Source: a virus
Lineage: Duplodnaviria; Caudoviricetes
Direction: 5' to 3' (one strand)
DNA length: 64,000 nucleotides
IMG/VR virus record: IMGVR_UViG_3300013121_000023
Coordinates: 96,001-160,000 of that record
Shown: in pieces, positions 14,800 to 40,186 of the stretch
Position numbering within the stretch: the stretch's first letter is position 1
How the letters are laid out: each line of letters opens with the position of its first letter
Position numbers and translations under genes: made by a program
Notes under the pieces: generated by a model
Seen by the model: the letters and a program-made list of their open reading frames with translations, nothing else
Told to the model about the DNA's origin: nothing
The model's database searches: none

Positions 14800-15276
14800 A
14801 TGAATAAAACCGTACTAGAAAGAGCAATGCAGATTCTGGGCAATGCAGATGGTACTGATTTCGTAAGCAGGGTTAATGAAGCGTGTGATTTCATTGCGGA
14901 GAACATTACGGTAGCAACCGACATGTACACTATGGTACATGTATGTACTACGTGTGCATATATCGCTGGCACAATGAAGGTAGGCTACGGTAGCGATACT
15001 TTGGTACGCCTTATACGTAGGGAGTTTCTTAGAGGACTATACAGGATGCCTCAGTTTCCTATATGGTTTCTCGAAGACGAGAAGCTCTGCCTATCTTTCA
15101 TAACTCACATATGTGGGTGTAACTCTGAAGCAGACCACATTGTATCGTTGCTGTGCCTAGATAGAATTGGGGAACGTCCTGTATTTTTGGAAGTGGAGGC
15201 ACCGATTTACGTTAAGGAGTACGTCATAAAAAGAGCATCCATATACGGCTATGATGGGTGCCATATGAACGTTTAG
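14800..15276 (+). CDS. hypothetical protein (distant APEY family)
   Basis: PQFPIWF..EAPIYV. Confidence 0.6.
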   Translation: MNKTVLERAMQILGNADGTDFVSRVNEACDFIAENITVATDMYTMVHVCTTCAYIAGTMKVGYGSDTLVRLIRREFLRGLYRMPQFPIWFLEDEKLCLSFITHICGCNSEADHIVSLLCLDRIGERPVFLEVEAPIYVKEYVIKRASIYGYDGCHMNV

Positions 15277-15285
15277 GAGAACGCT

Positions 15286-15789
15286 ATGGATGTCACGTTT
15301 CATGCATACAAGTTCGGTAGAGAGATACGACAGCTGAAAGAACTCAGCGAAGAAGAAGAGCTTGCCTTTCTACAATCCTCGTTGAAAAACATCAAAGACA
15401 AAATTATAGAAGAGATAGAAAAAGCAACAGATGGTGATAATGCAGTGTTTATTGTAAAATATATGCTTAATGTTTCTCGAATGGCCGTTAATGAGATACG
15501 CCTAAAGTACTTTGATGTCAATCATCCATATAAAAACGCTGTTGCACGTATGGTGCATGAATACACATACGACATAGTAACAAAAGTAGTCACTGATCCA
15601 ACAATTGTTGTTTTGTGCCAAATCCATAACAATGACAGACGAGATATTGTATGGGAAATTACGCTTACTATAGTAAATGCTGGATCTAGCGTAAATGACG
15701 AGTATAGACGTGTTCGTATAGCAGACGTACCCACAAGAACATTGAGGACATACGAACGGGCCTTGTTTAACATACCGGATTGGTTTTTA
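15286..15789 (+). CDS. hypothetical protein, probably ending at TTA
   Basis: AGGAG SD; only in-frame TTA seen is at 15787, 12 codons before TAA. Confidence 0.55.
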
Positions 15790-15888
15790 GTCGTATTGGA
15801 AAAAATATTGCGTATTGGCGCATAAGAGGTTTGGCAGTTACTTTGGGCGTCCAAATGGCCGCCCATGTTTCATCAAAAGGAGTTAGTT

Positions 15889-16554: not shown

Positions 16555-17073
16555 ATGACGACACGAAAGTTTGGGTTTGGTTCTATCCGTGTGGCTCGTA
16601 ACTTGATTGATATCGCAAGAGTAGATATCAGAAAATACGAGATGAGGATAGCCGCCACGCAAGCGTTGTACGACGTTTGTAAGGAGCTGATCAAGAGCGG
16701 AACTCTTATGGGTATCAACGCCCGTACAGTTTTGCTGCTTATGGCTTATCTCAAAGGTAGGTATTATGACGATGTTGAGAGAAAGCAAAGCGCTACATCA
16801 CGAAAATTTTTGAACGCCATAACCTTCAAGATACTGCATGACATAAAGTCAATCTTCCCAAATAAAGACAGTTTGAAGAACGTAGCCTTCGAACACATCA
16901 AGTTGGACGGCGCTGGTGGTTTTGCTGACTGGGTAGCATCCTGCGGAAACAACGTGGTTTCGGTGCCGCCTGGAACCAAGAAGGCCAGAAAGAAAGCTTA
17001 CGCCGAAAGAAGGGCTGCGCGAGTTAAGAAGGACATGGAAATGACTCATACAGCGAGTGACTTCAAAGCTTAG
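16555..17073 (+). CDS. basic hypothetical protein, in frame with downstream Pth2 across a TAG
   Basis: AAGGAGG SD; LLMAYLKGRYYDDVE motif; ends TAG 17071-17073. Confidence 0.7.
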   Translation: MTTRKFGFGSIRVARNLIDIARVDIRKYEMRIAATQALYDVCKELIKSGTLMGINARTVLLLMAYLKGRYYDDVERKQSATSRKFLNAITFKILHDIKSIFPNKDSLKNVAFEHIKLDGAGGFADWVASCGNNVVSVPPGTKKARKKAYAERRAARVKKDMEMTHTASDFKA

Positions 17074-17382
17074 AGGGTATATGTGGTGGTGTGTGACGAT
17101 CTCCCCAGCAGCTCACAAAAAGCTGTTCAGGGAGCACACGCACTCACCCAGTACATTCTACGTAACTTGCAAGAAGCCCAACAATGGGAAAAGGACTCAA
17201 ACGTCCTTGTGTTTCTGCGGGTGCCCGACGAGCAAGCCCTTATTTCTACAGCTGACAAGCTGAAGATTAATGGCGTTCCGGTGGAGGTGTTTACTGAGCC
17301 CGATTTGGGTAATAGGGCTACAGCACTGGCTGCGTCACCGTCAGCAGCCAAGCACCTCAAAAGATACCCACTGATGAAGTTA
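17074..17382 (+). CDS. pth2: Pth2-like peptidyl-tRNA hydrolase domain ending at TTA
   Basis: RVYVVVCDDL..QKAVQGAHA..W..LVFLRV..E..L..FTEPDLGN..TALA..YPLMK then TTA 17380-17382 right before a terminator. Confidence 0.75.
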
Positions 17383-17384
17383 CG

Positions 17385-17418
17385 AAAGCGGGCCTCGGCC
17401 CGCTTTCTTTTTAACTAC
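17385..17418 (+). terminator. intrinsic terminator
   Basis: GAAAGCGGGCC-TC-GGCCCGCTTTC plus TTTTTAACTA. Confidence 0.8.
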
Positions 17419-20505: not shown

Positions 20506-20524
20506 GGTTTAAGTCATAAGAATT

Positions 20525-27393: not shown

Positions 27394-27406
27394 GAAAGAT
27401 TGTTTG

Positions 27407-27479
27407 TAGGACGCCCGGGACTTGAACCCGGAACCTGCGGATTAAAAGTCCGCTGCTCTACCTATTGAGCTAGCGACCC
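27407..27479 (-). tRNA. tRNA-Lys(UUU)
   Basis: cloverleaf; GCGGA-CTTTTAA-TCCGC; GGTTCAAGTCC T loop. Confidence 0.9.
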
Positions 27480-27490
27480 GAAGGAGAACC

Positions 27491-27787
27491 ATGACAACAG
27501 CAGCGCGCATGAGGGATTTGGTGGGCGAATATACCAAAAAAGTCATTAGTGAAAATGAGGAACATATAAATGAAAACTTGCTACCGATATTCCTTAAAGA
27601 CTTGTATTCTTGCATAGAATCAGCTGCATCTAAGGGACAGCGCACATACCAACATGCTATAAATCTTACAACCTTGAAGGTGCTGCATTTGGTTGTTCCA
27701 CAATTGAGAGATCGAGGTTATTTGGTAGAGTATATTACTAGTAGTACTACACAGCATCTTATGTACATGAACGTATCTTGGTCATTA
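27491..27787 (+). CDS. hypothetical protein ending at TTA
   Basis: AAGGAG SD; ...NVSWS then TTA 27785-27787 before the shared terminator. Confidence 0.6.
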
Positions 27788-27791
27788 CTTG

Positions 27792-27827
27792 GTAGCTAAA
27801 AAAGAAGAGAGCGAAAGCTCTCTTCTT
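27792..27827. terminator. bidirectional terminator
   Basis: AAAGAAGAGAGC-GAAA-GCTCTCTTCTTT between convergent genes. Confidence 0.8.
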
Positions 27828-28205
27828 TAAATACTTGAATCTATGCGCCTCAATGTATGAGGCCATTACCTCTGCAATGTAGTCGGGGGCAATTCCCCGA
27901 AGTGCATTGCGACTGAGCACTTTTGCGGTACCCTTCCCCCACGGTACCTTCACTGCCTCAATATATGGTTTGCCCTCCCCTTCTGGATGGCGCATTGTTA
28001 GCAAGTGTCTCGCTGCCTGCATCAGCAGGGAGCTTACCTCCTTCGGCTCCTCCAGCCAAAGGATGTGGATTACTGGGTGGTTCAGCACCACCCTCAATTG
28101 CTTTATGGTTTCTTCATTTGCAATATCAGTGTACCTAGTGCCCTCATGTACGAATGTCCTAATGTCCAACAGGGCCTTCCGAAGGCCCTCTATGTTTTCG
28201 TACAT
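27828..28205 (-). CDS. hypothetical protein (APEY family) ending at TTA
   Basis: AGGAGG SD; LNHPVIHILW..IAPDYI; TTA 27830-27828 abuts the terminator. Confidence 0.65.
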
Positions 28206-28318
28206 AGTACCTCCTTTCATATATCTTATGCCATTTTTACGAATAAATTAAGGTACACATAAGTAATAATCGAGGGGCTAAAGAAATGGAAGGATAGCTC
28301 CATCTCTAATAAGTGTTG

Positions 28319-28390
28319 TGCCCCAGAGAGGAATCGAACCTCCTTTAGCCTCCTTGTAAGGGAGGTGCCGGACCAGCTGGCTCCTGGGGC
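28319..28390 (-). tRNA. tRNA-Val(UAC), non-canonical D arm
   Basis: GCCCCAG/CTGGGGC acceptor; CCTCC-CTTACAA-GGAGG; GGTTCGATTCC. Confidence 0.8.
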
Positions 28391-28395
28391 AACTG

Positions 28396-28686
28396 TAACT
28401 TAGATATATCCAAAGAAAGGGAAATCAGCATACCAATGAATTGGTCTCTTCCTTTTTCTACTTCTGTTATGAATTCCGAAACCAATTTGGTTTCGGTCGT
28501 GCCATTTGACTCTATTGTCATGTTCATGTTATGAAAACATGACGATGCTGAATCTGGCCATATTGTGTGTGATACTTTATTAAACCGTTTGTGGAATAGA
28601 TGCCACGCATCTCTAAAGCAGTCTGTTACATAGACCATAACCACCAGTTCTTTTCTTTCTGTGTCCTTTATGAAGTAAACGTTCAT
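28396..28686 (-). CDS. hypothetical protein ending at TTA
   Basis: TTA 28398-28396 ends the ORF 5 nt before tRNA-Val instead of running through it. Confidence 0.6.
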
Positions 28687-28722
28687 TCTTCATTCCTTTC
28701 ATTTTTACTCATATAGTAACAG

Positions 28723-28796
28723 TGGGACCACTCGGATTCGAACCGAGAACATCCCGGTTATGAGCCGGGGGCTCTGACCGATTGAGCTATAGTCCC
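28723..28796 (-). tRNA. tRNA-CAU (Ile2-like or elongator Met)
   Basis: CCCGG-CTCATAA-CCGGG; paired G1-C72 so not initiator. Confidence 0.85.
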
Positions 28797-28875
28797 AAAC
28801 AAGCCGTTTTTAAATAAACGGCAAGGATTTATTGCATGACGTGGCCTCAGCCCGCCTTATCTATGCAATACATCG

Positions 28876-28947
28876 AGCCCACTATGGGATTTGAACCCAT
28901 GACCTACGGTTTACAAAACCGTTGCTCTACCACTGAGCTATGTGGGC
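28876..28947 (-). tRNA. tRNA-Thr(UGU)
   Basis: ACGGT-TTTGTAA-ACCGT. Confidence 0.9.
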
Positions 28948-28950
28948 AGG

Positions 28951-29060
28951 AGCGACAGGCCCGAGTCGAACGGGCGACCAACGGAAAACCGCTGCTCTAC
29001 GGGGCCATCACCAGACAGAACGTTACTTGTCTGGCTTGTGACCTACTGAGCTACTGTCGC
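28951..29060 (-). ncRNA. tRNA-like RNA with D-loop insertion and no anticodon loop
   Basis: GCGACAG/CTGTCGC acceptor, intact T arm, ~45-nt hairpin in D loop, anticodon arm reduced to GCGG-TTTT-CCGT. Confidence 0.7.
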
Positions 29061-29083
29061 AAAAAAGGCTTATATAGCCTTTG

Positions 29084-29155
29084 TGGATCGTCTAGGAATT
29101 GAACCTAGGCACAGCGCTTATAAGACGCCGCAGGGCAACCAGCCCGTCACGATCC
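29084..29155 (-). tRNA. tRNA-Ile(UAU), non-canonical D arm
   Basis: GGATCGT/ACGATCC; GGCGT-CTTATAA-GCGCT; GGTTCAATTCC. Confidence 0.8.
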
Positions 29156-29234
29156 ATAAGAGGTACACCGGAGACCCGATGAAGCCTTCCGCCAGCATGG
29201 TAGGAAGAAGGAGTGTCACCACGATGTACCTCGG

Positions 29235-29306
29235 CATCCCTGACAGGATTTGAACCTGTGACCCGGAGATTAGAAATCTCCTGCTCTTCCGCTGAGCTAC
29301 AGGGAC
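29235..29306 (-). tRNA. tRNA-Arg(UCU)
   Basis: GGAGA-TTTCTAA-TCTCC. Confidence 0.9.
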
Positions 29307-29544
29307 ATCTACGCCTTCACTCATATTTCTTATTGCGCTATTTATTTGATTTTTTCTTACGGTAGCTAAAAATAGATAGGGTTTGCTGATATAGGAGTAA
29401 GTTGGCCCGCCGTCATGATCGCCGTTATACCGGATGGAGTCTGGAGTACAGCTACTATCAACCGGGCCGAGAAGATAGATTTACAACGAACTGGTGTGGT
29501 TCGTATGACTAACGGTCTTTCGGGGCGCCTCATCAAGACCGCTG

Positions 29545-29623
29545 TGCTCTTGGCAGGAGTCGAACCTGCAAATAATAAAGCCGCTTTTGAAACGGCCGCG
29601 TCTGCCTATTTCGCCACAAGAGC
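29545..29623 (-). tRNA. tRNA-Leu(CAA), short variable region
   Basis: GCCGT-TTCAAAA-GCGGC; Leu-type GGCGAAATAGGCAGACGC D arm. Confidence 0.85.
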
Positions 29624-29682
29624 TTTGGCCGTCACCCCCCACACCAACTACTAGAGCTGTGTGGGGGGGGGGTTTCGTAGGT

Positions 29683-29781
29683 AGACCCCGAGTTAGAAAG
29701 CCGTTCTGCATCTTCAGTATTCGGCGAAGAAAAAGAGAGTTGCACTCTTTTCGGGCGTGTATGGCTTTCTTGGTGGGGTCT
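29683..29781 (-). ncRNA. Y RNA-like element 2 (T-arm containing)
   Basis: terminal stem AGACCCC/GGGGTCT and AGAAAGCC/GGCTTTCT; internal AAGAG-TGCAACT-CTCTT; shares motifs with 29871-30016. Confidence 0.5.
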
Positions 29782-29865
29782 TGGAAAGCGAAGAGGAATT
29801 GAACCTCTTATCTCCATTTCGGTAGTTGGCCTAGATGGATGGTTTTTGCCTTTAACCTACGCTTC
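29782..29865 (-). ncRNA. tRNA-like RNA with 17-nt anticodon loop
   Basis: D stem GGTT/AACC; TCCAT-(17 nt)-ATGGA; AGAGG-TTCAATT-CCTCT; ends CCA. Confidence 0.6.
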
Positions 29866-29870
29866 ATAAT

Positions 29871-30016
29871 GAGACCCGAGTTACTGCACCATTGTCCTTG
29901 TTAGGACTGGTTTTGGTTACCAGTTGCCGACCACCGGCACCTACCCCTTATACGGGGTAGCTAGGATTCGAACCTAGTTTTTGGGGTTGCGTGTAGGATG
30001 CAGTTGTTTGGGTCTC
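29871..30016 (-). ncRNA. circularly permuted tRNA-like RNA inside a long closing stem (Y RNA-like)
   Basis: order T arm, closed acceptor hairpin, D arm, anticodon arm; ends paired GAGACCC/GGGTCTC and ACTGCA/TGCAGT. Confidence 0.7.
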
Positions 30017-30018
30017 GG

Positions 30019-30100
30019 TGCTGAGAGAGGGACTCGAACCCTCACGGTTTTACCCGCCGGTACCTAAAACCGGGGCGTCTACCTATTCCGCCACCTCAGC
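30019..30100 (-). tRNA. tRNA-Leu(UAG)
   Basis: CCGGT-TTTAGGT-ACCGG; long variable arm. Confidence 0.9.
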
Positions 30101-30174
30101 AAGAAAGGGTGTAAGTAACGTGTGTAGGGACGAACGGCGAAGAACATCCAAGTACTCACGTTAAGCACACCCTG

Positions 30175-30253
30175 TGGGGTAGATAGGGATCGCACCTATC
30201 AGCTCTGGGCAGCGGTTTTACAGACCGCCTGAAGCACTAGCTTCGTCTACCCC
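30175..30253 (-). tRNA. tRNA-Tyr(GUA), atypical D and T loops
   Basis: GGGGTAG/CTACCCC; GCGGT-CTGTAAA-ACCGC; T loop TGCGATC. Confidence 0.75.
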
Positions 30254-38022: not shown

Positions 38023-38520
38023 CTACATGAACCAAAGACCTTCGTCTTCTAGCGAAGCTACTTTTAGGTCTGTTACGTTAGTTGCTGTTACTGCTTTTAT
38101 CACTGTCGTCTTTGTTATTCGCGCTTTCGTTGGTTTTCTTTTACGTACAAGAACATACTCTAGAAATGGTCTTGGATTATCTCTAAGGTAGTTATACACA
38201 GAATCCCATTCTTCTTTCGTCAAGCCGTATCTTGACGTTTTATAACTCGCATTAGCTGTCATTGCGTTCTTGAGTTGTAGCTCAAGGTCGAGCACGGCCC
38301 CCAATAGCTTATTGCGACAGTAACCACTTCGCCTTTCTGCTTCTCCCACTGTTATTATATTCGGCTTTGGTATCTTTATTCCCATAGACCTGGCTTTTAC
38401 TATTATAGACCTTTCTGTTTTTGGGTACCCCATTGCTCTAAGTGCTTGTTTAGCTGCGTTTACATTTGGCATCTTTGTTATTAGAACTCCTACCATAATA
38501 GGATTCCATCTGGTTTTCAT
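38023..38520 (-). CDS. basic hypothetical protein (possible DNA-binding)
   Basis: KTERSIIVKARSMGI helix-turn-helix-like segment. Confidence 0.55.
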   Translation of the reverse strand: MKTRWNPIMVGVLITKMPNVNAAKQALRAMGYPKTERSIIVKARSMGIKIPKPNIITVGEAERRSGYCRNKLLGAVLDLELQLKNAMTANASYKTSRYGLTKEEWDSVYNYLRDNPRPFLEYVLVRKRKPTKARITKTTVIKAVTATNVTDLKVASLEDEGLWFM

Positions 38521-39056
38521 ACAGACCTCTTTTTGTTTGGGGCAAACGAAAATCTTGTTATCTGTGATTTAGCTATAGCGTATATTTCTTCTTGTGATTT
38601 GCCTTCAACTACAACATAATCGGTTATTAGGTAGTTTTTGTCACGCCTTCCTATGGCGCGTTTACCGCTAATTACAAAACTGTAGTTGTAAGTGTTTGCT
38701 ATTACAGCGAGTTTGTTTTTATTCGCGACGTGCTCTAGTATGTATTCTGGTGCGAACACTTCTGTTAGGAATTCTGTGTCTATTATTCTACCTGCACTAA
38801 TTGGTACTCCTGCGCCTACGTATACCGCAATATATTTGCTTTCTGGTATACACAACTCGATAGACCTAGATACAGAATCGCTGTTTTCTTCGAAGAAAAA
38901 CCAAAGCATCGCATGATTAAAAATTCTGTACAATATCTCCATGCGTCTATTTGTGGATTCTTTAGCTGTTATGCTGATTGCTTTATGTACGTAGGCACTC
39001 AACTCTAGTACGCTATTTGCATCTTCTATAAGATCTATAGTACTTCTGTTAGCCAA
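38517..39056 (-). CDS. hypothetical protein (APEY family)
   Basis: IFNHAMLWFF..FAPEYI. Confidence 0.55.
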   Translation of the reverse strand: MANRSTIDLIEDANSVLELSAYVHKAISITAKESTNRRMEILYRIFNHAMLWFFFEENSDSVSRSIELCIPESKYIAVYVGAGVPISAGRIIDTEFLTEVFAPEYILEHVANKNKLAVIANTYNYSFVISGKRAIGRRDKNYLITDYVVVEGKSQEEIYAIAKSQITRFSFAPNKKRSV

Positions 39057-39394
39057 TCAGGTGCGCTCCATTTTGGCGGGTACACATCCACGTAATAGCC
39101 ACGTATCTCTGCTAGTACTTCATTTGTTACTTCTATTATTTCCATTGTGTGATCGTTCAAGTCCATTTCATCGCAGTGTACGTATAGATATCCTTCTTTT
39201 CTATAAAACGTTCCGCTGTAACCTATATGTCCACAAAACCGATAGCTTTCTACCGGGTACTCTATCCTTGTAAAAGCATCTACAAAGTAACCTATGTTCA
39301 GGTCGTCTGTAGCTGCGCCAGCATACTGTTCCAGCACTAGGTGTACATCTTTGTATATGGGTACCAGTGGTTCGTAATAGGTGAACTTGTGCAT
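39035..39394 (-). CDS. hypothetical phage protein
   Basis: YRFCGHIGYSGTFY motif. Confidence 0.65.
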   Translation of the reverse strand: MHKFTYYEPLVPIYKDVHLVLEQYAGAATDDLNIGYFVDAFTRIEYPVESYRFCGHIGYSGTFYRKEGYLYVHCDEMDLNDHTMEIIEVTNEVLAEIRGYYVDVYPPKWSAPDWLTEVL

Positions 39395-39413
39395 CTTTTT
39401 AGCGTTTCGTTAG

Positions 39414-39485
39414 CGCGGGTAACGGGACTTGAACCCGTACATAAGGATTTAGAATCCTATGCTCTACCAGTTGAGCTATACCCAC
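39414..39485 (-). tRNA. amber suppressor tRNA (anticodon CUA)
   Basis: GTGGGTA/TACCCGC; TAGCTCAACTGGTAGAGCA; TAGGA-TTCTAAA-TCCTT; GGTTCAAGTCC. Confidence 0.85.
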
Positions 39486-39520
39486 ATGCCCAATGTCTTA
39501 TAACAACATTGGGCTTATTT

Positions 39521-40186
39521 CTACATTTTTGGCACCGAGAAGCCTTTATCTCCTTGATACTTTCCGCCCTTGGCTGCATACGAAATTAGGGGCGCGACAG
39601 CAGTTCTGAAGAATAGAACCTGGCACACTCCTTCACCTATATACAGTTTGGCAGGTACGGGGTTGGCGTTCTGAATTTCCAACGTCAGTCTACCGTGCCA
39701 TCCTGGTTCTATTGGGGTGATAAGCTGATTCACGCCGCACCTAGCGTACGTAGACTTGCCTATGCACAGCCCCATTATATTTTCTGGCATTCGGAAGTAT
39801 TCCAGTGTTTCACCGAATACAGTGGAGTTGCCAGGTATCCATACGTAAGAACCAGTAGGCCCTTCTTTTGGTAGTAGCTGCTGAAGTGGTGCGCCACCGT
39901 TTTTAGGGTCTACGTGCGTAGAGTCTGGCGTCCTAACGAACCACTTGTCCCCAGCAGTTATATCGTAGCCAACCGTAGATATACCACGGCTTATTATCTT
40001 CACATTGGTGAGTACGCCGTTGATATCCATTGGTTCCTGACGTACTGACTTCTTTAGATACGGAAAGACTATGGAGTTTTCTTCTTTGTCTAGAAGCTTT
40101 ATGATTTCTCCATCAGTCAAGAGGCCAGATGGTTCACTACCGGTAAGGTGATTAAGCATGCGCTCAAAATCGTTGTCGTTCGCCAT
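39521..40186 (-). CDS. dcd: dCTP deaminase
   Basis: IIS.G.S..GYD, GKSTYARCG, TPIEPGWHG.LTLEI, GKYQ. Confidence 0.9.
   Translation of the reverse strand: MANDNDFERMLNHLTGSEPSGLLTDGEIIKLLDKEENSIVFPYLKKSVRQEPMDINGVLTNVKIISRGISTVGYDITAGDKWFVRTPDSTHVDPKNGGAPLQQLLPKEGPTGSYVWIPGNSTVFGETLEYFRMPENIMGLCIGKSTYARCGVNQLITPIEPGWHGRLTLEIQNANPVPAKLYIGEGVCQVLFFRTAVAPLISYAAKGGKYQGDKGFSVPKM

What the first reader, a model, noticed from the sequence alone, without database searches (positions are those of the whole stretch)
39414..39485. Stand-alone amber suppressor tRNA in a genome that still ends genes with TAG
Canonical cloverleaf with loop TT-CTA-AA and G discriminator, outside the tRNA cluster, with a TTATAAGA motif about 10 nt upstream. 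Many TAG-ended genes have a backup stop within three codons (20505 TAG GGT TTA; 22050 TAG TAA; 22949 TAG TAT ATC TGA; 39521 TAG AAA TAA; 39035 TAG ATC TTA; 61177 TAG AAA ACT TGA), as expected if TAG is leaky, and two backups are TTA. TAG at 15276 is also in frame with the next gene.
Basis: partly seen in the sequence, partly recalled or inferred. Interest (0 to 1): 0.8.

Follow-up and report, generated by a model that had tools for sequence, protein, structure and literature searches.

The report
Phage amber-suppressor tRNA with Pth2 target
A 177-kb phage that still ends genes with TAG carries a genuine UAG-reading tRNA, and its likeliest job is to carry ribosomes past one TAG inside a two-domain peptidyl-tRNA-hydrolase gene, a tRNA-plus-hydrolase pairing that many unrelated phages share and that I found in no paper.

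Summary
The tRNA at 39414-39485 (minus strand) is real. ARAGORN and Rfam (67.5 bits) both call it, it folds as a cloverleaf, and the CUA anticodon is identical in two independent assemblies.

The genome is a complete 177-kb phage and is not TAG-recoded. TAG marks true ends of coding, and in-frame coding signal collapses after it as after other stops.

The TTATAAGA "promoter" is the loop of a hairpin and is not enriched.

A specific target exists. At 17071-17073 a TAG lies between a 172-aa N-domain gene and a Pth2-type hydrolase domain, three codons before the conserved first strand. Other sequences encode the same two domains as one uninterrupted protein.

Among 57 lineages of phage Pth2 homologues, 48 have a CUA tRNA within 5 kb and 30 have an early in-frame TAG, without genome-wide recoding.

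Here the pair is split: 22 kb apart, on opposite strands.

This scan has already reported the Pth2/CUA-tRNA module on other genomes. I re-derived it independently. No paper in the searched library describes it.

The phage also appears to end genes at TTA. I found no link between that and the tRNA.

The parts
39414..39485 (-). tRNA with anticodon CUA (amber suppressor type). It has a 7-nt loop UUCUAAA, G73, a 4-nt variable loop, an unpaired U27-U43 and no encoded CCA.
   Evidence: ARAGORN. Rfam RF00005 67.5 bits, E=1.5e-12. The minimum-energy fold is a cloverleaf, z=-3.6. The sequence is identical in two other assemblies. Position 27-43 is unpaired.
39488..39514 (-). 10-bp hairpin with loop UUAUAAG, ending 2 nt before the tRNA 5' end. 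No U-tract follows it. It is a likely processing or stability element, not a promoter.
   Evidence: Fold gives -16.1 kcal/mol, z=-5.1. The motif is not enriched. No promoter or terminator was called at this site.
39521..40186 (-). dCTP deaminase gene directly upstream of the tRNA. It ends TAG AAA TAA.
   Evidence: Pfam PF22769, E=2e-26. PHROG 1663. Homologues align to its last residue.
39035..39394 (-). 119-aa gene of unknown function starting 19 nt after the tRNA. It ends TAG ATC TTA.
   Evidence: ORF list. No Pfam or PHROG match. The same gene was called in independent assemblies.
16555..17070 (+). Gene A, a 172-aa N-terminal domain that in other sequences is fused to a Pth2 domain.
   Evidence: Coding score 0.25. 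An HMM built from 18 N-domains of fused homologues hits only this protein in the phage proteome: E=2.3e-4, next best 0.32, and 0 of 2000 shuffles reach the score.
17071..17073 (+). In-frame TAG between gene A and the Pth2 domain. This is the proposed target codon of the tRNA.
   Evidence: Sequence. R-V-Y after the TAG aligns with the conserved K-L-Y of homologues, and no ATG lies between.
17074..17382 (+). Pth2-type peptidyl-tRNA hydrolase domain. An alternative start is GTG 17083, preceded by GAGGG. The gene ends at TTA 17380-17382, at the point where homologues end.
   Evidence: Pfam PF01981, 33-35 bits against a cut-off of 23. 746 homologues were found. The family-invariant residues are kept.
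17388..17413 (+). Intrinsic-terminator-like hairpin plus T-tract starting 6 nt after the TTA. It lies inside what table 11 would read as ORF.
   Evidence: Read directly from the sequence.
27406..30253 (-). tRNA cluster with nine ARAGORN calls: Lys, Val, Met, Thr, Ile, Arg, Leu, Leu and Tyr. Seven pass Rfam. None reads UUA.

Best explanation
The gene encodes a functional amber-suppressor tRNA. It is transcribed with the replication and nucleotide-metabolism genes and charged by a host synthetase.

The phage has not reassigned TAG. I propose that the tRNA's selected role is gene-specific. It competes with release factor 1 at the UAG at 17071-17073, which interrupts a two-domain gene made of an N-domain (gene A) and a Pth2-type peptidyl-tRNA hydrolase. 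Termination there yields the N-domain alone. Suppression yields the full 275-aa N-domain-Pth2 protein. Hydrolase output would then be set by how much charged suppressor is present.

Shown:
- The tRNA is real, and its anticodon is confirmed in independent assemblies.
- TAG ends coding genome-wide.
- The Pth2 domain starts right after an in-frame TAG.
- The N-domain-Pth2 architecture exists uninterrupted in other sequences.
- CUA tRNAs accompany phage Pth2 genes in most lineages.

Inferred:
- The tRNA is expressed and charged.
- The UAG is read through in vivo.
- The fusion, rather than a GTG-started Pth2, is the active product.

The inserted residue is unknown. Gln or Lys are the usual outcomes for CUA tRNAs in E. 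coli.
For: tRNA integrity:
- Searches confirm the fold, and one search confirms the sequence in other assemblies.
- The unpaired 27-43 position is enriched in phage CUA tRNAs: 16/65 against 17/202 other tRNAs, p=0.001.
- PMC13092985 reports that an unpinned top pair of the anticodon stem raises UAG or UAA read-through.

No recoding:
- Coding density is 0.933-0.935 with TAG as a stop and does not rise when TAG is read as sense.
- The per-codon coding score after TAG is -0.43, like TAA and TGA at -0.47, against +0.21 inside genes.

Target:
- PF01981 begins 2 residues after the TAG.
- R-V-Y aligns with the consensus K-L-Y, and most stand-alone homologues start 3-4 residues before our GTG.
- The closest homologue (51% identity, L176) reads ATG ACG TAG ...K L Y V V V, and a CUA tRNA lies 30 nt after its stop.
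- L046 reads ATG TTG TAG before its Pth2 and has a CUA tRNA 460 nt downstream.
- In 57 IMG/VR lineages of Pth2 homologues, 48 have a CUA tRNA within 5 kb and 30 have an early TAG.
- Those loci are not TAG-recoded.
- Gene A matches the N-domain of uninterrupted N-domain-Pth2 proteins.

Relatives:
- G002 has neither Pth2 nor a CUA tRNA.
- G001 has an ungated Pth2 with two odd tRNAs about 100 nt upstream.
Against: - Here the tRNA and Pth2 are 22 kb apart on opposite strands. In other phages they are usually within 200 nt on one strand.
- A GTG at 17083 with GAGGG 5 nt upstream could start Pth2 without read-through. The closest homologue is annotated from the equivalent GTG.
- Only three codons lie between TAG and GTG, so coding constraint there rests on a short match.
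- The gene A to N-domain homology rests on one 33-residue motif (15 bits).
- Seventeen lineages have a CUA tRNA beside an ungated Pth2. Gating therefore cannot be the whole reason for the pairing.
- No expression, charging or proteomic data could be obtained.
Confidence: 0.55

Rival explanations
1. It is a general, untargeted suppressor, an early step toward TAG recoding as proposed for suppressor tRNAs acquired by standard-code relatives of recoded phages. TAG is simply leaky late in infection, and no particular gene depends on it.
For: - Borges et al. describe suppressor acquisition by standard-code phages before code change.
- TAG is the least used terminator here, 26/216.
- 10 of the 26 TAG-ended genes have another stop within 3 codons.
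Against: - TAG is 17% of canonical stops, which is ordinary for 46% GC.
- The backup enrichment is absent outside the window.
- No in-frame TAG was found in any conserved domain.
- This reading does not explain why CUA tRNAs sit beside Pth2 genes in 48/57 lineages.
Confidence: 0.17
2. It is a host-directed weapon. The suppressor extends host proteins that end in UAG, or disturbs RF1-dependent termination, as part of host takeover. Pth2 then cleans up the resulting peptidyl-tRNA load.
For: - Ungated Pth2 genes are also followed by CUA tRNAs, 17 lineages. That suggests a functional partnership beyond gating.
- The phage has few TAG-ended genes, and many of their extensions are short.
Against: - The host is unknown, so no host data are available.
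- The phage's own 16 TAG-ended genes with extensions of 6 codons or more would suffer too.
- No phage release factor or synthetase was found that could bias the competition.
Confidence: 0.12
3. It is part of one integrated rewiring of termination together with TTA-as-stop. UUA ends genes, UAG is partly read through, and Pth2 releases chains at UUA.
For: - In-frame TTA count is 140, against 1031 and 466 in the other two frames, and the in-frame copies sit at ORF ends.
- Adding TTA as a fourth stop does not lower coding density, unlike any other codon.
- Coding score falls after TTA.
- Pth2 itself ends at TTA where homologues end, and a terminator follows.
- No tRNA for UUA is encoded.
Against: - None of 73 other Pth2/CUA-tRNA loci with enough data shows TTA depletion.
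- None of 9 other CUA-tRNA loci shows TTA depletion.
- Relatives G001 and G002 lack the TTA pattern.
- The module is therefore older and independent, and a CUA anticodon cannot read UUA.
Confidence: 0.1
4. It is a non-functional relic or a recently mutated sense tRNA with no role.
For: - It has no close relative in which to test conservation.
- Its isotype cannot be assigned by similarity.
Against: - Its Rfam score is high, all tertiary positions are intact, and the loop is suppressor-typical.
- It is not a paralogue of any tRNA in the phage.
- The same class of tRNA recurs beside Pth2 in dozens of lineages.
Confidence: 0.05

Closest known systems
Suppressor tRNA(CUA) of TAG-recoded ('code 15') phages such as crAss-like and Lak phages, and suppressor tRNAs acquired by their standard-code relatives (Borges et al., bioRxiv 10.1101/2021.08.26.457843; Peters et al., PMC9523058)
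   Same: It is a phage-encoded cloverleaf tRNA with a CUA anticodon. It has no phage synthetase, so it would be charged by the host. It lies among early and replication genes.
   Different: - This genome has no in-frame TAGs in structural or lysis genes and full coding density under table 11.
- GC is 46%, not low.
- TAG is not depleted among the canonical stops.
CUA suppressor tRNAs of cultured jumbo phages with no known target: Xanthomonas phage XacN1 (PMC5852040). Also Bixzunavirus mycobacteriophages such as Cane17, where a 'tRNA-OTHER' lies beside gp148 'peptidyl tRNA hydrolase'.
   Same: - They are standard-code phages with a CUA tRNA and a Pth2-type hydrolase.
- In Cane17 the CUA tRNA lies 250 nt after the hydrolase gene, and ATG TAG precedes its GTG start.
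- XacN1 ORF364 (280 aa) carries the Pth2-like domain at its C-end, the same two-part layout as gene A plus Pth2 here.
   Different: - In XacN1 the ORF is uninterrupted, and the authors found no target for the tRNAs.
- Here the two domains are separated by TAG.
- Here the tRNA is 22 kb away on the other strand.
Programmed UAG/UGA read-through producing C-terminally extended proteins (for example Q-beta A1 coat extension; from general knowledge)
   Same: One stop codon gives two products in a set ratio, a short protein and an extended protein carrying an extra domain.
   Different: Classical cases rely on host near-cognate tRNAs and codon context. Here the virus brings its own cognate suppressor tRNA.
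Amber suppressors with an unpaired 27-43 top pair of the anticodon stem (E. coli tRNA-Trp and tRNA-Thr CUA variants; 4-bp anticodon-stem tRNA-Trp; PMC13092985)
   Same: The tRNA has U27-U43 unpaired, giving a 4-bp anticodon stem, and A37-A38 follow the anticodon.
   Different: Those are laboratory mutants or UGA-reading tRNA-Trp. Whether the mismatch here raises efficiency or allows UAA reading is untested.

Membership tests
Amber suppressor tRNA (tRNA-Sup CUA) | Canonical cloverleaf with conserved tertiary nucleotides (U8, A14, G18G19, U33, purine 37, G53 T54 T55 C56, A58, C61) | tested here: met
   ARAGORN. Rfam 67.5 bits over model positions 1-71. The minimum-energy fold is a cloverleaf. 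The nucleotides were read.
Amber suppressor tRNA (tRNA-Sup CUA) | Anticodon CUA at positions 34-36 of a 7-nt loop | tested here: met
   The loop is UUCUAAA. It is identical in two other assemblies.
Amber suppressor tRNA (tRNA-Sup CUA) | Expressed, aminoacylated, and inserts a residue at UAG | not testable with these tools
No phage GlnRS/GluRS or TrpRS/TyrRS was found.
TAG-recoded (code 15) phage | Many genes with in-frame TAG, and low coding density under table 11 that is rescued by reading TAG as sense | tested here: not met
   Density is 0.933 under table 11 against 0.928 with TAG as sense. It is 0.935 against 0.927 when TTA is also a stop. There is no coding signal after TAG.
tRNA-Pyl (ARAGORN's label) | Atypical Pyl architecture (small D-loop without G18G19, 3-nt variable loop, 6-bp anticodon stem; from general knowledge) | tested here: not met
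   The D-loop is a normal 8 nt with GG, the T-loop is TTCAAGT, and the anticodon stem has 5 positions. ARAGORN's label follows from the anticodon alone.
Phage tRNA(CUA)-Pth2 module (this scan; not found in papers) | A Pth2-type (PF01981) gene is present in the same phage | tested here: met
   PF01981 at 33-35 bits against a cut-off of 23, at 17074-17382.
Phage tRNA(CUA)-Pth2 module (this scan; not found in papers) | The CUA tRNA lies on the same strand within a few hundred nt of the Pth2 gene | tested here: not met
   Here the two are 22 kb apart on opposite strands. In 48/57 lineages the tRNA is within 5 kb, mostly under 200 nt.
Phage tRNA(CUA)-Pth2 module (this scan; not found in papers) | An in-frame TAG lies shortly before the conserved first strand of Pth2, with no ATG in between | tested here: met
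   The sequence reads TAG AGG GTA TAT GTG..., with the TAG 3 codons before the conserved Tyr. The variant form here is that a 172-aa domain, not a 2-13-codon leader, precedes the TAG.

The most novel reading that the evidence does not exclude
The CUA tRNA and the Pth2-type hydrolase form a widespread, undescribed phage translation circuit. In this phage it has been coupled to a new genetic code in which UUA terminates. Under this reading Pth2 is the enzyme that frees finished chains from ribosomes halted at UUA, and the amber codon in its gene lets the suppressor tRNA license that activity only during infection.
Probability: 0.1. Interest if true: 0.9.

Novelty: new variant of a known kind. 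Interest (0 to 1): 0.6.

Why it matters
Suppressor tRNAs in phages that keep the standard code have had no known purpose. The XacN1 authors looked for targets and found none (PMC5852040).

A specific, recurrent target would turn these tRNAs from curiosities into parts of a natural one-codon translational switch that acts on tRNA recycling. That target is a stop codon at the entrance of a Pth2-type peptidyl-tRNA hydrolase.

This phage adds a variant. The amber codon sits in the linker of a two-domain gene, so one gene would yield two products. The tRNA is also unlinked from its target.

The idea can be tested directly in cultured phages that carry the same pair, namely Bixzunavirus in Mycobacterium smegmatis and XacN1.

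It also warns annotators that Pth2 genes in phages are often called from a false internal GTG start.

Tried and rejected
- **Close relatives to test conservation of the tRNA:** none exist in the collections searched. The best dCTP deaminase match is 39-47% identical and PolA 46%.
- **An exact anticodon-arm search of viral contigs** found nothing.
- **Isotype by similarity:** bacterial tRNAs sharing the D-arm reach 56/72 (Gly) and 54/72 (Thr, Lys, Trp). The phage's own tRNAs reach 36-49/72. No assignment is possible.
- **TAG recoding:** rejected.
- **Three ORFs in one frame at genome 8604-12368:** in G001 the homologues lie in different frames, so they are separate genes.
- **Domains spanning TAG in six in-frame ORF pairs:** none found.
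- **The pair 14800-15276 / 15286-15825:** no homologues in relatives.
- **Phage release factor (PF00472, PF03462) and GlnRS/GluRS or TrpRS/TyrRS (PF00749, PF00579):** absent.
- **Extra or hidden tRNAs in the cluster:** nothing new by Rfam at E up to 1.
- **TTATAAGA as a promoter:** not enriched.
- **Backup stops as adaptation to a leaky TAG:** not replicated outside the window.
- **A link between TTA depletion and CUA tRNAs or Pth2:** none in other phages.
- **Pairwise BLASTP of gene A against fused homologues:** weak, E 0.02-0.05. The profile search was needed.

Full report
**1. The observation**

ARAGORN finds ten tRNAs in the window. Nine lie in a cluster at 27406-30253. One has anticodon CUA at 39413-39485 on the minus strand.

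Rfam's tRNA model scores the CUA tRNA 67.5 bits over its full length, against a gathering score of 29. The 72 nt fold on their own into a cloverleaf at -26.4 kcal/mol, z=-3.6.

The features read from the sequence are:
- loop UUCUAAA;
- discriminator G73;
- a U2-G71 wobble pair in the acceptor stem;
- a 4-nt variable loop;
- U27 and U43 unpaired;
- no encoded CCA.

ARAGORN's label 'tRNA-Pyl' reflects the anticodon alone. The D-loop and T-loop are ordinary.

Two contigs assembled independently from other runs (SRR15603313, SRR26835457) carry the identical 160 nt, CTA included.

**2. The setting**

The window is bases 96001-160000 of a 177,132-bp virus record with overlapping ends.

The tRNA lies in the minus-strand replication and nucleotide-metabolism block:
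- It starts 35 nt after a dCTP deaminase gene.
- It ends 19 nt before a 119-aa gene of unknown function.
- Family A polymerase and SNF2 helicases lie nearby.

The motif occurs 9 times in the genome against 8.5 expected, and no sigma-70-like site was found. The tRNA is most simply co-transcribed with its neighbours and then processed.

**3. Is TAG still a stop?**

Yes, on three counts:
- Table 11 gives 93.3% coding density, and reading TAG as sense does not raise it.
- A codon-usage score averages +0.21 per codon in genes. In frame after TAG it falls to -0.43, as it does after TAA and TGA (-0.47).
- No Pfam or PHROG domain spans a TAG in the six cases where TAG is in frame with the next ORF.

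The most striking case is three ORFs in one frame. In relative G001 the homologues sit in different frames, so they are separate genes.

**4. The TTA context**

Notes from earlier readers in this scan claimed that TTA ends genes in this phage.
- In-frame TTA occurs 140 times, against 1031 and 466 in the other two frames. Most in-frame copies lie in the last tenth of an ORF, at its extreme 5' end before the likely start, or in short doubtful ORFs.
- Adding TTA as a fourth stop leaves density at 0.935. Any other codon used this way lowers it.
- Coding score falls after TTA (-0.38).
- The Pth2 gene ends at TTA at the point where homologues end, and a terminator hairpin starts 6 nt later.

With four stops, the genes end in TGA 74, TTA 63, TAA 53 and TAG 26.

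**5. The backup-stop argument**

With only TAA and TGA as backups there is no enrichment.

With TTA included, 10/26 TAG-ended genes have another stop within three codons, against 38/190 for the rest (p=0.035). The excess is 7/11 inside the window and 3/15 outside, and the outside figure equals background.

The hypothesis was formed on the window, so the independent part of the genome does not support it.

**6. Identity and tuning of the tRNA**

The tRNA is not a paralogue of any tRNA in the phage (36-49/72 identical). It is not close to one bacterial isotype either: Gly 56/72, and Thr, Lys and Trp 54/72.

The phage encodes no release factor and no GlnRS/GluRS or TrpRS/TyrRS. A host enzyme must therefore charge it, and the inserted residue stays open.

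The unpaired 27-43 position is enriched among phage CUA tRNAs:
- 8/14 against 4/34 in a first sample;
- 16/65 against 17/202 in a second sample chosen by Pth2 rather than by tRNA (p=0.001).

PMC13092985 summarises experiments in which unpinning this pair raised UAG read-through and allowed UAA reading. This argues for a tuned suppressor rather than an accident.

**7. A specific target**

Earlier notes flagged a Pth2 domain behind an amber codon in this window. They also reported a CUA-tRNA/Pth2 pairing in other genomes. I treated both as leads and tested them.

*(a) The local sequence.* It reads ...TTC AAA GCT TAG AGG GTA TAT GTG GTG GTG TGT GAC GAT CTC.
- PF01981 starts two residues after the TAG.
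- R-V-Y matches the family consensus K-L-Y.
- Most stand-alone homologues begin 3-4 residues before our GTG.

*(b) The closest homologue (51% identity).* It lies on a 168-kb contig and reads ATG ACG TAG CCA CAC CGA GAT AAG CTG TAC GTG GTG GTT. A CUA tRNA lies 30 nt after its stop.

*(c) A systematic sample.* I took 82 viral loci with Pth2 homologues, forming 57 clusters at 80% identity.
- 48 clusters have a CUA tRNA within 5 kb, nearly always on the same strand and mostly within 200 nt.
- 30 clusters have ATG, then 1-13 codons, then TAG, then at most 16 codons without an ATG before the conserved strand.
- These loci are not TAG-recoded. Reading TAG as sense raises density by 0.042, and the TGA control raises it by 0.028.

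*(d) Uninterrupted two-domain proteins.* Some homologues are single proteins of 190-230 aa with an N-terminal domain ahead of Pth2. A profile built from 18 such N-domains finds gene A, and only gene A, among the phage's 216 proteins: E=2.3e-4, next best 0.32, and 0 of 2000 shuffles reach the score.

Gene A, the TAG and Pth2 therefore correspond to one two-domain gene with an amber codon in its linker.

**8. Relatives and cultured phages**

- G002 (PolA 35% identical) has neither Pth2 nor a CUA tRNA.
- G001 (PolA 46% identical) has an ungated Pth2 preceded by two tRNAs with 9-nt anticodon loops.
- In Mycobacterium phage Cane17 the annotated 'tRNA-OTHER' 250 nt after 'peptidyl tRNA hydrolase' is a CUA tRNA, and ATG TAG precedes the annotated GTG.
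- XacN1 has two CUA tRNAs for which its authors found no target. It also has a 280-aa ORF with a C-terminal Pth2-like domain.
- Full-text searches found no paper that links Pth2 to suppressor tRNAs.

**9. Interpretation and limits**

The best reading is a gene-specific read-through switch. RF1 termination at UAG 17071 gives the N-domain alone, and suppression gives N-domain-Pth2.

The main weaknesses are:
- The tRNA and its proposed target are 22 kb apart.
- GTG 17083 with a GAGGG ribosome-binding site could start Pth2 independently.
- The N-domain homology rests on a single 33-residue motif.
- Ungated Pth2 genes also keep a CUA tRNA beside them (17 lineages), so the partnership must have a further basis that I cannot name.
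- No other Pth2/CUA locus shows TTA depletion, so I cannot tie the tRNA to the TTA phenomenon.
- No expression data were obtainable.

**10. Verdict**

The tRNA is real and probably functional. The genome-wide 'leaky TAG' reading is weak. The likely role is tied to Pth2.

As a phage suppressor tRNA it belongs to a known kind. Two features make it a new variant: the Pth2 pairing, and the split form here with an amber codon in a domain linker. The module itself has already been seen by this scan on other DNA.

Noticed in passing
whole genome; in the window e.g. 17380-17382, 20509-20511, 39029-39031: TTA behaves as a fourth terminator. There are 140 in-frame copies against 1031 and 466 in the other frames, and the in-frame copies cluster at ORF ends. 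Adding TTA as a stop keeps coding density at 0.935, and 63 genes would then end at TTA. Coding score drops after it. No tRNA for UUA is encoded.
   Followed up: partly
L007:1422-1575 (G001, 186.7-kb relative): Two tandem tRNAs lie about 100 nt upstream of the ungated Pth2 of the relative. ARAGORN calls them 'Phe(aaa)'. Their anticodon loops have 9 nt (CGUAAAGAA and ACUAAAGAA). They occupy the place where other phages keep a CUA tRNA.
   Followed up: no
G001:143109-143475 and G002:161047-161424: Both distant relatives encode a tmRNA. This phage has none and has ten tRNAs instead.
   Followed up: no
window 29083-29155 and 30174-30253: ARAGORN's tRNA-Ile(UAU) and tRNA-Tyr(GUA) do not reach Rfam's tRNA threshold. 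Ile scores 23.8 bits, and only against the tRNA-Sec model. Tyr is not reported. They may be atypical or not tRNAs at all.
   Followed up: no
L258:1471-1479 and 2101-2173 (Mycobacterium phage Cane17): The annotated peptidyl-tRNA hydrolase gp148 is preceded in frame by ATG TAG directly before its GTG start. The 'tRNA-OTHER' 250 nt downstream is a CUA tRNA.
   Followed up: partly
L178-L257 (viral contigs with Pth2 homologues): The short leaders before the gating TAG are mostly M-K or M-T (MK 7 clusters, MT 5, MKDT 3). They resemble two- or three-codon minigenes of the kind known to provoke peptidyl-tRNA drop-off in lambda (bar minigenes; from general knowledge). Gene callers start these Pth2 genes at internal GTG codons.
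   Followed up: partly
window 38023-40186: Three of the 26 TAG-ended genes (38023-38520, 39035-39394, 39521-40186) flank the suppressor tRNA itself. This may be chance.
   Followed up: no
window 17035-17046: In-frame ATG GAA ATG ACT, preceded by AAGAAGGA, lies 10-12 codons before the TAG. This is a possible internal start that would make the TAG codon 11 or 13 of a Pth2 ORF nested in the end of gene A.
   Followed up: partly
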